64,000 bases of DNA. Origin: a virus (taxonomy: Duplodnaviria; Heunggongvirae; Uroviricota; Caudoviricetes). Under the pieces are notes generated by a model. That model worked only from the letters and a program-made list of their open reading frames with translations. It did not search any database and had not been told where the DNA came from. Below, one piece after another: positions 24,443-27,274 of this stretch. The translations under genes were made by a program, and so were the position numbers. How positions within the stretch are numbered: the first letter of the stretch is position 1; the number at the start of each line of letters is the position of its first letter. The stretch lies in IMG/VR virus record IMGVR_UViG_2880412407_000011. One strand, 5' to 3'.

Positions 24443-24655
24443 TCAAGCAAGATGACGTCTTGGTCTTGCTGATGCCTGGCGCTCAATCCAGCGATCAATT
24501 TCTTCCAGGTTGTAAAAGCATGGACTGTTATCCCATGGCATACCGTCATGAGCGACATGCTTATATTCCCTTCCTTCCATAAACGATTTTTCCCGGGCCT
24601 TTTTTAACGTACCTTTTTTTATTCCTTTCAGCGCAATTAACTGCTCTTCGGATAC
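24443..24655 (-). pseudogene. xis: excisionase-like gene, 3' fragment (split by IS insertion)
   Basis: Reading frame continues across the IS with the fragment at 27233-27274 once the IS and one TSD copy are removed, giving an 84-aa ORF; position immediately upstream of int. Confidence 0.5.
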
Positions 24656-24734
24656 TGAGGTGTACTGGCAATAGCGGACACTACCATTTGTTTGAACCGC
24701 CCCGGTTTTCCTGGAGAGTGTTTTATCTGTGAAC

Positions 24735-25622
24735 TCAGGCTGCCAGATCATCGTTTCTGATGGAAGCATAATAAGCTTTTTCTGCTTCTGCCGGAGGGAT
24801 ATGACCCAGCCTTCCCAGCAATCGTCGATTGTTATACCAGTCCACCCACGTGAGTGTGGCCAGTTCCACTTCTGCACGGTTTTTCCAGCTCTTACGGTGT
24901 ATTACCTCCGCTTTGTAAAGACCATTGATGCTCTCCGCCATCGCGTTGTCATACGAGTCACCTGTACTCCCTGTTGATGCCAGCAGTTTTGCTTCTTTTA
25001 GTCGCTCCGTATAGGCCAGTGATACATACTGAGAACCTTTATCACTGTGATGGACTGTGCCGGACGGCCGACGGGCCCACAACGCCTGCTCCAGTGCATC
25101 CAGCACGAATGTCGTTTCCATAGACGATGAGACTCGCCACCCCACGATACATCCGGCAAACACATCAATGATGAACGCCACATAGACGAAGCCCTGCCAT
25201 GTGCTGACGTAAGTAAAATCAGCCACCCACAGCTGGTCAGGACGTTCTGCCACGAACTGACGGTTTACGCGGTCGCCTGCGGAAACGGCTTTCCGGCTGA
25301 CGGTAGTACGGACCTTTTTACCCCGGAGAACACCGGCAAGTCCCATAACCGCCATGAGGCGCGCCACTGTACATCTGGCCACCCTGATACCTTCGCGTAA
25401 CAACTGGCGCCAGACTTTACGCACACCGTACACCTGATGATTTTCATCGTATACGCGCTGTATCTCTCTCTTCAGCCAGTCATCGCGCTGAGCACGGGCA
25501 CTGCGTTTATCAGGATGATGTCGCTGTTGCTGACAGTGGTAATACGTTGACGGGGCAATATGCAGCTCACTGCATACCGGTCCGACCCCGTACTGCTCAC
25601 GCAGCTTATCCAGCAGTGGCAT
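24735..25622 (-). CDS. IS629-like transposase OrfB
   Basis: 295 aa; DDE integrase motifs (HHSDKGSQY, DNAMAES). Confidence 0.85.
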   Translation of the reverse strand: MPLLDKLREQYGVGPVCSELHIAPSTYYHCQQQRHHPDKRSARAQRDDWLKREIQRVYDENHQVYGVRKVWRQLLREGIRVARCTVARLMAVMGLAGVLRGKKVRTTVSRKAVSAGDRVNRQFVAERPDQLWVADFTYVSTWQGFVYVAFIIDVFAGCIVGWRVSSSMETTFVLDALEQALWARRPSGTVHHSDKGSQYVSLAYTERLKEAKLLASTGSTGDSYDNAMAESINGLYKAEVIHRKSWKNRAEVELATLTWVDWYNNRRLLGRLGHIPPAEAEKAYYASIRNDDLAA

Positions 25623-25948
25623 TATTTTTTCCAGAGGCGGTCGAACTCCGCCTTCGCAAAATAAGCGGAAGCCTGGCGAAGGATATCGTTACTGCGGCGC
25701 AGTTCACGATTTTCACGTTCCAGCTCTTTCAGACGCTGACGTTCAGCGGTGGTGAGTCCACCATCACCGCCCCCGGTATCCCGCTCATGCTGACGAACCC
25801 ACACACGCAGAGTCTCTGGTGTACAGCCAATCTTTGGGGCAATGGAACAAATTGCCGCCCATTGTGAGTCATATTCGCCCTGACTTTCCAGAACCATACG
25901 AACTGCCCGTTGACGGACCTCAGGGGAAAAACGTGTATTTTTAGTCAT
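25622..25948 (-). CDS. IS629-like transposase OrfA
   Basis: 108 aa; [22 protein letters not shown]... HTH/leucine zipper. Confidence 0.85.
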
Positions 25949-26011
25949 CCTGTTTACCTCTTTCTCAGGGAGTTTAGTCTCCAGGATTCCCGGGGCGGTT
26001 CAGTTCTTTTT

Positions 26012-26830
26012 TTAAGCAGCCATCTGATGATATTTTTCCCTGAAGGCTGCCGGGGAGATATTCCCCAGACGAGAGTGACGACGCTGACGATTGTAGAAAA
26101 TCTCAATGTATTCCCGTATTACTGAGATGGCTTCATCCCGGTTATTAAAACGATAGTGGCTCAGGCTCTCATTTTTCAGCGTTCCCCAGAAGCTTTCCAT
26201 CGGAGCGTTGTCGTAACAGTTACCTTTACGCGACATTGATGTTTTCAGACCAAACTGCTCCTGTATGACCCGGTAATCGTATGCGCAGTACTGTGAACCT
26301 CGATCAGAGTGGTGGATTAGCCCGGCAGGTGGGCGCTGGCTCCTGAGCGCCATAAACAGAGCTTTACCTGTCAGCTCTTTTGTCATGCGCTCTCCCATGG
26401 CGTAGCCGACAATTTCGCACGTATAAACATCTTTGATGCCAGCGAGGTACAACCATCCCTCCTGTGTGGCAACATACGTCAGGTCCGCCACCCAGACCTG
26501 ATTTGGTGCTGTAGGAGCGAACGTCTGGTTCAGCAGATTTGGCGCAACTGGCAGATTGTGGTTCGAGTTCGTAGTCGCTCTGAACTTGCGTTTCTGCTTA
26601 CAGCGTAGCCTTAGCTCCTTACGAAGACGTGCCAGTCGGTCACGACCAACGATGATGCCATTCTCTGCCAGCTCCGTCTGGAGCCGCCGGGTTCCATATG
26701 TTTCGCGAGTGCGGATATGTGCCACCTTAATCTCCAGTTTTAGCCGCTCATCACTTTGTTTTCTGTCTGAGGGTTCATGCTGTACCCAGTTGTAATAACC
26801 GCTCCTGGATACACCAAATACCTGACACAT
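26012..26830 (-). CDS. IS600-like transposase OrfB (copy B)
   Basis: Identical protein to 20134-20952. Confidence 0.85.
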   Translation of the reverse strand: MCQVFGVSRSGYYNWVQHEPSDRKQSDERLKLEIKVAHIRTRETYGTRRLQTELAENGIIVGRDRLARLRKELRLRCKQKRKFRATTNSNHNLPVAPNLLNQTFAPTAPNQVWVADLTYVATQEGWLYLAGIKDVYTCEIVGYAMGERMTKELTGKALFMALRSQRPPAGLIHHSDRGSQYCAYDYRVIQEQFGLKTSMSRKGNCYDNAPMESFWGTLKNESLSHYRFNNRDEAISVIREYIEIFYNRQRRHSRLGNISPAAFREKYHQMAA

Positions 26831-26865
26831 CGCTTCAATGGGAAATTGTTGTCGCCATTGTTCGA

Positions 26866-27168
26866 TTAACGCGTATTTTTCAGCGACTCCTGTGCAAAAT
26901 ACGCTGTTGCTTTTTTTAATATATCTCGCTCAAGGCGAGCTTCATTTAACGCCTTACGCAGTTGCAGAATTTCAGATTCCAGTTCAGCCACCGTGCGGGA
27001 ACCAGGAGTACCGAGCCCTTTTCTGGCGGCGGTAACCCATTGTCCTAAAGTGCCTTCAGGAAGAGATAATCGGGAAGCGCCTTCACTGATCGAAAGTTGA
27101 TTTTCAAGAACCGTTCTGACAGCTTCGGCTTTGAACTCTTTAGAGTAACGTTGGGTTTTTCTGCTCAT
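26866..27168 (-). CDS. IS600-like transposase OrfA (copy B)
   Basis: Identical protein to 19796-20098. Confidence 0.85.
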   Translation of the reverse strand: MSRKTQRYSKEFKAEAVRTVLENQLSISEGASRLSLPEGTLGQWVTAARKGLGTPGSRTVAELESEILQLRKALNEARLERDILKKATAYFAQESLKNTR

Positions 27169-27232
27169 TATTAGCTCCTTCTGATGCCATTCTATTTCAG
27201 GAAGGAGTGTCCGTTAAACTCAGGCTACCTCA

Positions 27233-27274
27233 TACCCATTTGCCGGGAGAGACAATCATGATTACTTCGCTCAT
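27233..27274 (-). pseudogene. xis: excisionase-like gene, 5' fragment
   Basis: 14 codons (MSEVIMIVSPGKWV) in frame with the 3' fragment at 24443-24655 across the IS. Confidence 0.45.

What the first reader, a model, noticed from the sequence alone, without database searches (positions are those of the whole stretch)
24443..27274. Nested IS insertion (IS629 inside an IS600-like element) splits the excisionase gene next to int
An IS600-like element (24656-27232) carries intact 3-bp target duplications (TAC) and sits in a small ORF directly upstream of int. Removing the IS and one TAC copy restores an 84-aa excisionase-like reading frame (MSEVIMIVSPGKWV | SEEQLIALKG...). An IS629-like element (24692-26002, flanked by GTT duplications) is in turn inserted 9 bp beyond the IS600 orfB stop. 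Loss of Xis would be expected to lock prophage Y in the chromosome, and the nesting gives a relative order of events.
Basis: partly seen in the sequence, partly recalled or inferred. Interest (0 to 1): 0.6.

Follow-up and report, generated by a model that had tools for sequence, protein, structure and literature searches.

The report
Nested insertion sequences split prophage excisionase
The excisionase gene of a lambda-like prophage in a Shiga-toxin E. coli O121:H19 genome is split by an IS600 element that itself carries a later IS629-type element; this is ordinary mobile-element decay that probably makes the prophage harder to cut out of the chromosome.

Summary
IS600 occupies 24656-27232 with TAC duplications. 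An IS629-type element occupies 24693-26002 (not 24692) with GTT duplications.

- Removing the inner element plus one GTT gives a 1264-bp IS600 identical to a second copy in the window.
- Removing everything plus one TAC gives an 83-aa (not 84-aa) protein. It is identical to an intact excisionase annotated in O157:H7 LSU61 and is a full-length match to Pfam PF06806, the family of the tested Rac excisionase XisR.
- The window is 100% identical at this locus to O121:H19 genomes. Seven complete O121 genomes carry IS600 at the same site without the inner element.
- None of 5,426 complete E. coli genomes has the nested junction. So IS600 came first, in the lineage, and the IS629-type element came later, in one strain.

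The xis gene is very probably null: the cut removes invariant G11/W13, and no credible start codon serves the rest. "Locked" is too strong. Published Xis-less prophages still excise at reduced rates, and IS600 excises precisely in this lineage. The same int-xis module is hit independently by IS elements in other Shiga-toxin strains. Ordinary; low interest.

The parts
24443..24655 (-). 3' fragment of xis: codons 14-83 plus the stop codon. 24653-24655 (TAC) is one copy of the IS600 target duplication, which is codon 14 (GTA) on the coding strand.
   Evidence: It retains PF06806 profile positions 10-69 of 70.
24656..24692 (-). Right-end 37 bp of IS600 (the terminal inverted repeat downstream of orfB), cut off from the rest of IS600 by the inner element. 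24690-24692 (GTT) is one copy of the inner element's target duplication.
   Evidence: 100% match to positions 1-37 of the reconstituted IS600.
24693..26002 (-). IS629-type IS3-family element, 1310 bp, ends TGAACCGCCCCGG.... orfA is 25622-25948 (108 aa) and orfB is 24735-25622 (295 aa). It is flanked by GTT at 24690-24692 and 26003-26005.
   Evidence: (HTH_Tnp_1, rve, NF033516 transpos_IS3).
26003..27232 (-). Main body of IS600. GTT duplication at 26003-26005, orfB 26012-26830 (272 aa), orfA 26866-27168 (100 aa), left terminal repeat ending at 27232, and a transposase promoter-like site at 27217-27189.
   Evidence: 100% identical to IS600 in O121:H19 strain 16-9255, where RefSeq names it.
27233..27274 (-). 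5' fragment of xis (start codon at 27272-27274, codons 1-13), plus the second TAC copy at 27233-27235.
23128..24423 (-). Intact tyrosine integrase (431 aa) immediately downstream of xis. Identical sequence to WP_001206148.1 in genomes with an intact xis; 43% identical to IntR of Rac.
27347..29809 (-). 820-aa exonuclease gene upstream of xis in the same early-left transcription direction (Exonuc_VIII N-terminal region plus an Rv2179c-like 3'-5' exonuclease domain). This is the context that fixes the operon order exo-xis-int.
19732..20995 (+). Second IS600 copy, in the opposite orientation, in the tail-fibre assembly gene of the neighbouring prophage. It serves as the reference for the reconstituted IS600 and is the recombination partner for the inversions seen in sister strains.
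22943..23090 (.). Candidate left attachment region of the prophage that owns int and xis. It is similar (84% over 83 bp, 93% over 28 bp) to the sequence that abuts the truncated ydfJ at the prophage's right end in a sister genome.
   Evidence: The exact core was not determined.
32145..32783 (-). Full-length CI-like repressor (212 aa, HTH plus Peptidase_S24) of the same prophage. It suggests the prophage may still be SOS-inducible.

Best explanation
This is the integration/excision module (exo-xis-int, minus strand) of a largely complete lambda-like prophage. The prophage is integrated at ydfJ, in tandem with another prophage, in a Shiga-toxin E. coli O121:H19 genome.

Sequence of events:
- IS600 transposed into xis between codons 14 and 15 and duplicated TAC. 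This happened in an ancestor shared with at least seven sequenced O121:H19 strains.
- Later, in this strain only, an IS629-type element transposed into the non-coding tail of that IS600. It landed 37 bp from the IS600 right tip and 9 bp past the orfB stop, and duplicated GTT.

Consequence for xis (inferred):
- The gene is null. The first 13-14 codons, which include invariant G11 and W13, lie 2.58 kb from the rest. These residues sit just before, and at the start of, the first strand of the winged-helix fold.
- The remaining 69 codons have no credible start site of their own.

Expected phenotype (inferred from Rac XisR and lambda biology):
- Integrase-mediated excision is strongly reduced but not abolished, while int, the repressor and the structural genes remain intact.

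Effect of the second insertion (inferred):
- It adds nothing to the xis defect.
- Restoring xis would now require two precise IS excisions, or removal of the whole 2.58-kb composite.
For: Boundaries and duplications read directly from the sequence.

Reconstitution tests:
- The reconstituted IS600 is 100% identical to a second copy in the window.
- The reconstituted Xis is 100% identical to an intact annotated excisionase, and the empty site has a single TAC.

Family and fold:
- PF06806 at 108 bits covers profile positions 1-69 of 70; phrog_539 'excisionase' matches.
- The tested Rac XisR falls in the same Pfam family (74 bits; 26% identity).
- The AlphaFold model (pLDDT 74) best matches PDB 2KVV 'putative excisionase' (E 5e-4, TM 0.61-0.65), then P2 Cox and winged-helix proteins (sequence hit).
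- G11, W13 and V14 are invariant or nearly so in homologues.

Comparative genomics:
- The window is 100% identical to O121:H19 strain 16-9255 on both sides of the inner element.
- Seven O121 genomes have xis::IS600 without it, and none of 5,426 genomes has the nested junction.
- The nested junction is also absent from IMG/VR, and its chimeric ORF products are not on record.

Expression of the 3' fragment:
- No promoter-like site or Shine-Dalgarno sequence serves the in-frame ATGs inside the IS629 end.

State of the rest of the prophage:
- The repressor is intact.
- Structural genes are annotated intact in the near-identical sister genome.
- The right end abuts a truncated ydfJ.
Against: - No excision or expression data exist for this strain.
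- An in-frame ORF runs from the IS629 end through the IS600 tip into the xis 3' fragment (144 aa from a GTG, or 108 or 102 aa from ATGs). It still scores 93 bits on PF06806, so a chimeric protein cannot be excluded by sequence alone.
- RefSeq annotates the equivalent 87-aa chimera in sister genomes as 'xisR excisionase family protein'.
- Whether a compatible Xis from another prophage in the same genome could complement was not tested.
- The nested arrangement is seen in this one sequence only, so it rests on the assembly.
Confidence: 0.85

Rival explanations
1. The xis 3' fragment is still expressed as a chimeric protein whose N-terminus is encoded by IS sequence and which retains excisionase activity. 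The insertion would then change regulation rather than abolish function.
For: - An open in-frame ORF runs through the IS600 tip into the IS629 end.
- The chimera keeps PF06806 profile positions 10-69 of 70 at 93 bits.
- RefSeq calls the sister-strain chimera 'xisR'.
- Both IS elements are co-oriented with xis, so read-through transcripts are possible.
Against: - Invariant G11 and W13 are replaced, and the first strand of the modelled fold is broken at the junction.
- The in-frame ATGs have no Shine-Dalgarno-like sequence, and no promoter-like site faces the fragment.
- The chimeric N-terminus differs between the IS600-only genomes and this window, so it is not a conserved product.
Confidence: 0.07
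2. The nested arrangement is an assembly artefact produced by collapsing or mis-joining multi-copy IS600 and IS629 repeats.
For: - The nested junction is found in no other genome: 0 of 5,426 complete E. coli genomes, 0 in IMG/VR, and no matching gene product on record.
- Both elements are multi-copy in this lineage: 27 IS600 and 10 IS629 copies in strain 51104 (PMC9397093).
Against: - A mis-join would not create a perfect 3-bp target duplication at exactly the two ends of a full-length 1310-bp element.
- Nor would it leave an IS600 that is base-perfect once the element and one GTT are removed.
- The flanks are 100% identical to sister genomes up to the exact insertion point.
Confidence: 0.04
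3. The order was the reverse. The IS629-type element entered an IS600 copy elsewhere, and the 2.58-kb composite then transposed into xis. On this view, the sister genomes with IS600 alone lost the inner element by precise excision.
For: - The IS600 ends and both transposase ORFs are intact, so the composite could in principle move.
- Precise IS excision is documented in this lineage.
Against: - Seven genomes would each need to have lost the inner element, or to share an ancestor that did. In contrast, no genome carries the IS629/IS600 junction at any locus.
- The insertion site, duplication and flanks are identical in the IS600-only genomes, which is most simply explained by descent.
Confidence: 0.03

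Closest known systems
XisR (YdaQ), excisionase of the Rac prophage of E. coli K-12 (Pfam PF06806 / DUF1233)
   Same: - Same Pfam family: 108 bits here, 74 bits for XisR.
- Same position, immediately upstream of and co-oriented with a tyrosine integrase that is 43% identical to IntR.
- Small protein with a winged-helix type model.
   Different: - Only 26% identical to XisR.
- 83 aa against 71 aa.
- The prophage is at ydfJ rather than ttcA.
- Here the gene is split by 2.58 kb of IS DNA.
IS600 insertion in lacZ of O121:H19, reversible by the IS-excision enhancer IEE (PMC9397093)
   Same: - Same element and same bacterial lineage.
- Same 3-bp target duplication.
- A gene knocked out by simple insertion.
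   Different: - The target here is a prophage excisionase gene rather than lacZ.
- The IS600 carries a second IS, so a single precise excision would not restore the gene.
- Reversion at xis has not been observed.
Defective prophages of O157:H7 Sakai with inactivated int or xis (PMC2669165)
   Same: Lambda-like prophages of Shiga-toxin E. coli whose integration/excision genes are damaged while most other functions remain. Prophages lacking a functional Xis (Sp4, Sp14) still circularised at low level.
   Different: - A different strain and prophage.
- The lesion here is a dated, two-step nested IS insertion rather than loss of a DNA-binding motif.
- No excision data exist for this prophage.
Independent IS hits on the same int-xis module in other Shiga-toxin E. 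coli
   Same: A module 99.5% identical (ynaM-att-int-xis-exo) carries:
- IS600 in mid-xis plus an IS3-family element in int in strain 08_4358;
- IS600 in int in O26 RM10386;
- IS1 or ISKpn26 in other strains.
   Different: Different positions, orientations and elements. None is nested, and none shares the TAC site outside the O121 genomes.

Membership tests
IS600 (IS3 family) | Element of about 1264 bp with imperfect terminal inverted repeats | tested here: met
   The reconstituted length is 1264 bp. The ends TGAGGTGTACTGG... and TGAGGTAGCCTGAG... are imperfect inverted repeats over about 27 bp.
IS600 (IS3 family) | Two overlapping ORFs (orfA with an HTH, orfB with a DDE integrase core) typical of IS3-family transposases | tested here: met
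   - orfA is 100 aa and matches HTH_Tnp_1.
- orfB is 272 aa and matches rve, rve_3 and HTH_21.
- NCBIfam transpos_IS3 scores 335 bits against a cut-off of 160.
- RefSeq annotates a programmed frameshift in the identical copy.
IS600 (IS3 family) | 3-bp target-site duplication | tested here: met
   TAC/TAC at 24653-24655 and 27233-27235. The empty site in LSU61 has a single TAC. A 3-nt target for IS600 is stated in PMC9397093.
IS600 (IS3 family) | Sequence identity to named IS600 | tested here: met
   100% identical to the copy at the same locus in O121:H19 strain 16-9255, which RefSeq names 'IS3-like element IS600 family transposase'. It was not compared with the ISfinder reference, which is not available here.
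IS629 (IS3 family; IS629/IS1203 group) | 1310-bp element with orfA of about 108 aa and orfB of about 296 aa, and a 3-bp duplication | tested here: met
   1310 bp, orfA 108 aa, orfB 295 aa, transpos_IS3 at 312 bits, GTT/GTT. The expected sizes are from my own knowledge of IS629.
IS629 (IS3 family; IS629/IS1203 group) | Identity to the reference IS629 rather than to a sister isoform | tested here: inconclusive
   - 99.4% identical to a copy annotated IS629 in phage JLK-2012.
- Only 95.6% identical to 'insertion sequence:IS629' of VT2-Sakai and to 'IS1203v' of Stx2 II.
- RefSeq labels the 95.6% type 'IS1203 family' and the window's type only 'IS3 family transposase'.
- No ISfinder reference was available.
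DUF1233 / PF06806 excisionases (XisR family) | Full-length match to the family profile above the curated cut-off | tested here: met
   The restored 83-aa protein scores 108.1 bits against a cut-off of 22, covering profile positions 1-69 of 70. phrog_539 'excisionase' gives E 1.4e-35.
DUF1233 / PF06806 excisionases (XisR family) | Small gene directly upstream of, and co-oriented with, a tyrosine integrase at a prophage end | tested here: met
   The xis stop codon is at 24443 and the int start at 24423, both on the minus strand. The int product has Arm-DNA-bind_2 plus Phage_integrase domains. The intact arrangement is seen in LSU61.
DUF1233 / PF06806 excisionases (XisR family) | Winged-helix type fold like the solved family member | tested here: met
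   The model of a 98%-identical homologue (pLDDT 73.7) best matches 2KVV 'putative excisionase' (E 5.2e-4, TM 0.61-0.65). The sequence hit to 2KVV has E 0.004. Confidence in the model is moderate.
DUF1233 / PF06806 excisionases (XisR family) | Binds the attachment-site arm and stimulates integrase-mediated excision | not testable with these tools
   This has been shown only for Rac XisR (PMC4632033). It needs an experiment for this protein.
   The Pfam scan at E <= 0.01 returned only PF06806, and NCBIfam returned nothing.

The most novel reading that the evidence does not exclude
The xis knockout could be a reversible, two-stage lock rather than a dead end. In this lineage the IS-excision enhancer removes IS600 precisely from lacZ in roughly one cell in a few hundred. 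The IS600-only allele of xis could therefore revert in a subpopulation and release an otherwise complete, SOS-inducible prophage. In the sister genome this prophage carries the effector gene nleC. The nested IS629-type element would then act as a second lock that stabilises the prophage in this strain.

A weaker related idea is that codon 14 (GTA/TAC) of this xis family is a preferred breakpoint. An unrelated contig loses homology at exactly that base.
Probability: 0.12. Interest if true: 0.45.

Novelty: new member of a known kind. Interest (0 to 1): 0.15.

Why it matters
It matters little beyond the strain itself.

- **Strain marker.** It gives a clean, datable two-step marker: a lineage-wide IS600 insertion followed by a strain-specific IS629-type insertion. 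This could be useful for typing O121:H19 isolates.
- **Prophage stability.** It predicts that an otherwise complete, effector-carrying lambda-like prophage is poorly excisable and therefore stably inherited.
- **Annotation error.** Sister genomes label an IS-derived chimeric 87-aa ORF as an intact 'xisR'. Automated surveys of prophage completeness would be misled by this.
- **General pattern.** Together with the independent IS hits and IS600-mediated inversions at the same module in other strains, it illustrates how IS expansion erodes prophage mobility in Shiga-toxin E. coli. That process is already well described.

Tried and rejected
- **Other excisionase families.** I looked for AlpA, lambda-Xis or other excisionase families in the restored protein. 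Only PF06806 matched.
- **Nested junction elsewhere.** I searched 5,426 complete E. coli genomes with both junctions and IMG/VR with an exact 30-mer. I also searched the gene-position index with three possible chimeric ORF products. Nothing was found. This argues for a strain-specific event but gives no independent confirmation.
- **Fusion partners in the protein database.** I tested whether chimeric or truncated Xis homologues (P0009, P0010, P0011, P0014, P0017, P0026) are fused to IS600 or IS629 sequence. None is. Their partners were not identified, apart from P0009, whose context is a different prophage remnant.
- **Promoters and terminators.** I scanned 24300-27500 for an outward promoter that could drive the xis 3' fragment or int. 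The only hit was the IS600 transposase promoter-like site, and the count was no higher than in shuffled sequence.
- **Structure prediction.** A 98%-identical database homologue was used instead.
- **Complementation.** I could not test whether another prophage in the same genome encodes a compatible Xis, because whole genomes cannot be scanned by protein in the E. coli collection.
- **Attachment site.** The exact att core was not determined; only a region of similarity was found.
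Full report
**1. What is in the sequence**

All genes in 23128-29809 lie on the minus strand. In transcription order they are:
- an 820-aa exonuclease gene (27347-29809);
- a 42-bp stub that starts with ATG (27233-27274);
- a 2577-bp block that encodes two pairs of IS3-family transposase ORFs (24656-27232);
- a 213-bp ORF tail (24443-24655);
- a 431-aa tyrosine integrase gene (23128-24423).

The outer block begins TGAGGTGTACTGG and ends CTCAGGCTACCTCA, which are imperfect inverted repeats. 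It is flanked by TAC on both sides.

Inside the block is a 1310-bp element at 24693-26002. It has TGAACCGCCCCGG-type inverted ends and is flanked by GTT at 24690-24692 and 26003-26005.

**2. Is it more than chance?**

Yes. Two reconstitution tests are decisive.
- Removing the inner element and one GTT gives a 1264-bp sequence that is 100% identical, end to end, to another IS600 copy in the window (19732-20995, opposite orientation).
- Removing the whole block and one TAC gives a 252-bp ORF. Its 83-aa product (not 84) is identical to the intact 'excisionase family protein' WP_000005551.1 of O157:H7 strain LSU61. The DNA differs at 1 of 252 positions, and the LSU61 site reads ...CGGATAC|CCATTT... 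with a single TAC.

On the coding strand the duplication is codon 14 (GTA, Val). The insertion therefore lies exactly between codons 14 and 15.

**3. What the pieces are**

Outer element:
- Its ORFs are a 100-aa HTH_Tnp_1 protein and a 272-aa rve protein. NCBIfam transpos_IS3 scores 335 bits against a cut-off of 160.
- The DNA is 100% identical to the copy RefSeq names 'IS3-like element IS600 family transposase' at the same locus in O121:H19 strain 16-9255.

Inner element:
- It encodes a 108-aa OrfA and a 295-aa OrfB (transpos_IS3, 312 bits).
- It is 100% identical to copies in several Stx2a phage records and on the plasmid of an E. coli isolated from wheat flour.
- It is 99.4% identical to a copy annotated IS629 in phage JLK-2012.
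- It is only 95.6% identical to the IS629 of VT2-Sakai and to 'IS1203v'.
- It is safest to call it an IS629/IS1203-group element. The exact isoform name could not be settled without ISfinder.

Restored protein:
- It matches Pfam PF06806 (DUF1233, putative excisionase) over positions 1-69 of 70 at 108 bits, and phrog_539 'excisionase' at E 1e-35.
- It shows no AlpA or other match.
- Its only relative of solved structure by sequence is 2KVV, 'putative excisionase' (E 0.004).
- An AlphaFold model of a 98%-identical homologue (pLDDT 73.7) has a strand at 13-15, helices at 16-23 and 29-36, strands at 44-46 and 59-62, and a helix at 63-74.
- The model's best PDB match is again 2KVV (E 5e-4, TM 0.61-0.65), followed weakly by P2 Cox and winged-helix proteins.
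- XisR (YdaQ) of Rac, the experimentally tested excisionase, belongs to the same Pfam family (74 bits; 26% identity). The integrase here is 43% identical to IntR.

**4. Where it comes from and the order of events**

- Window 1-22000 is 100% identical to several O121:H19 genomes.
- Around the finding, window 18143-24692 and 26003 onward align to strain 16-9255 at 100% and 99.9%. The only structural difference is the 1313-bp insertion, made up of the 1310-bp element plus 3 bp.
- Seven complete O121 genomes carry xis::IS600 at the same base with the same flanks and without the inner element.
- None of 5,426 complete E. coli genomes contains either nested junction as one piece.
- An exact 30-mer of the junction is absent from IMG/VR, while the xis::IS600 junction occurs there once.
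- Three possible chimeric gene products are not on record in the large gene index.

The order is therefore IS600 first, in a shared ancestor, and the IS629-type element later, in one strain. This agrees with the nesting logic. Published work gives 27 IS600 and 10 IS629 copies in O121:H19 strain 51104 (PMC9397093), so both elements are abundant in the lineage.

**5. The prophage around it**

- In the near-identical sister genome the prophage runs from int through early genes, replication, lysis, terminase, head and tail genes. It then continues to nleC and a dinI-like gene, and ends at a truncated ydfJ.
- It lies in tandem with another prophage, whose tail-fibre end carries the other IS600.
- A region left of int (22943-23090) resembles the sequence that abuts ydfJ at the far end. 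This is a candidate attachment region; the core was not defined.
- The CI-like repressor is a full 212-aa HTH plus Peptidase_S24 protein, although RefSeq annotates only its last 112 aa.
- Apart from xis, no lesion was seen in the genes checked. The prophage may well be inducible.

**6. Likely consequence**

What is shown:
- The coding sequence is split after codon 14.
- G11, W13 and V14 are invariant or nearly so among 16-22 homologues.
- The break falls in the first strand of the model.

What is inferred:
- The gene is null.
- An in-frame ORF does run from the IS629 end through the IS600 tip into the 3' fragment, and it still scores 93 bits on PF06806.
- However, its in-frame ATGs lack a ribosome-binding sequence, and no promoter-like site faces it.
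- The IS-derived N-terminus also differs between this window and the IS600-only genomes.

By analogy with the family's tested member, excision should fall but not vanish.
- Deleting xisR lowered Rac excision 9- to 14-fold (PMC4632033).
- Sakai prophages Sp4 and Sp14, which lack a functional excisionase, still circularised (PMC2669165).

'Locked' is therefore too strong.
- IS600 is removed precisely from lacZ in this lineage with the help of the IS-excision enhancer. Revertant copies are present at about 2-3 per thousand (PMC9397093).
- IS600-only alleles of xis may therefore revert in a minority of cells.
- The nested element means that two precise excisions, or removal of the 2.58-kb composite, would be needed here. 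This last point is inference only.

**7. How unusual is it?**

It is not unusual.
- The same ynaM-att-int-xis-exo module, 99.5-99.6% identical and uninterrupted, is present in many other Shiga-toxin strains.
- It has been hit independently elsewhere: IS600 in mid-xis plus an IS3-family element in int in strain 08_4358, IS600 in exo in strain 6883, IS600 in int in O26 RM10386, and IS1 or ISKpn26 in others.
- Within O121 the two inverted IS600 copies have recombined. In 2014C-3655 and 2015C-3107 the pin-ydfK-ynaM-int-xis' segment is inverted and so detached from the rest of the prophage.
- In 2014C-3599 int is truncated and part of exo is inverted.

This is the well-known erosion of prophage mobility genes in IS-rich Shiga-toxin E. 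coli. I found no paper that describes this particular xis lesion.

**8. Verdict**

- The structural interpretation and the order of events are supported.
- The functional claim is plausible but leaky and untested.
- This is a new instance of a known kind of event, of low general interest. Its main practical uses are as a strain marker and as a warning about the chimeric 'xisR' annotation in sister genomes.

Noticed in passing
window 19732-20995 (flanks 19729-19731 and 20996-20998): A second IS600, in opposite orientation, sits in the tail-fibre assembly gene of the neighbouring prophage. Its 3-bp flanks are GAG and GGG, an imperfect duplication. The uninterrupted site in strain 2014C-3599 reads ...TATCGAGTATTGCTG....
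   Followed up: partly
L005 (NZ_CP027351.1, strain 2014C-3655); also 2015C-3107: In two O121 genomes the segment between the two inverted IS600 copies (tfa', pin, ydfK, ynaM, int, xis 3' fragment) is inverted. This separates int from the rest of its prophage. In 2014C-3655 int is also frameshifted.
   Followed up: partly
L007 (NZ_CP027435.1, strain 2014C-3599) 30861-36529: This is a third configuration in an O121-like genome. The tail-fibre assembly gene is intact, int has lost its N-terminus to an IS600, and most of exo is inverted between two IS600 copies.
   Followed up: no
L012 (strain 08_4358), L011 (strain 6883), and rows: There are independent IS insertions in the same 99.5%-identical int-xis-exo module in other Shiga-toxin strains:
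- IS600 in mid-xis in the opposite orientation, plus an IS3-family element in int (strain 08_4358);
- IS600 in exo (strain 6883);
- IS600 in int (O26 RM10386);
- IS1 and ISKpn26 in other strains.
   Followed up: partly
L008 4073 (ENA contig ERZ16007981 NODE_172), protein P0009: A 93%-identical xis-int pair sits next to rspB/rspA in an unrelated assembly. It loses homology to xis exactly at the first base of codon 14 (GTA), the same point where IS600 sits here. Upstream is unrelated sequence, with an IS-like transposase gene about 1 kb away. This could be a scar of an IS-associated deletion or a coincidence.
   Followed up: partly
L003 6301-6564 (NZ_CP022407.1 and six other O121 genomes): RefSeq annotates an 87-aa 'xisR excisionase family protein' whose first 17 residues are read from the IS600 tip with a non-ATG start. 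The annotation hides the fact that the gene is interrupted.
   Followed up: yes
window 32145-32783 (minus strand): The CI-like repressor ORF is open for 212 aa (HTH plus Peptidase_S24) here and in strain 16-9255. RefSeq annotates only a 112-aa 'LexA family protein'.
   Followed up: partly
window 27347-29809 (minus strand): The 820-aa 'exonuclease' combines an Exonuc_VIII (RecE-like) N-terminal region with a C-terminal Rv2179c-like 3'-5' exoribonuclease domain. Between them is a long acidic, low-complexity linker that contains a CxxC...CxxC motif.
   Followed up: no
window about 48785-48815: The alignment to strain 16-9255 breaks here with a short overlap (window 48785/48815 against L003 29335/29326). 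This suggests a small repeat-number difference. Elsewhere the two differ by only 13 mismatches and 21 gap openings over 38 kb.
   Followed up: no
L006 (NZ_CP022407.1 999900-1020000), outside the window: In the sister genome the prophage that owns this xis carries the type III effector gene nleC near its right end and interrupts ydfJ.
   Followed up: no
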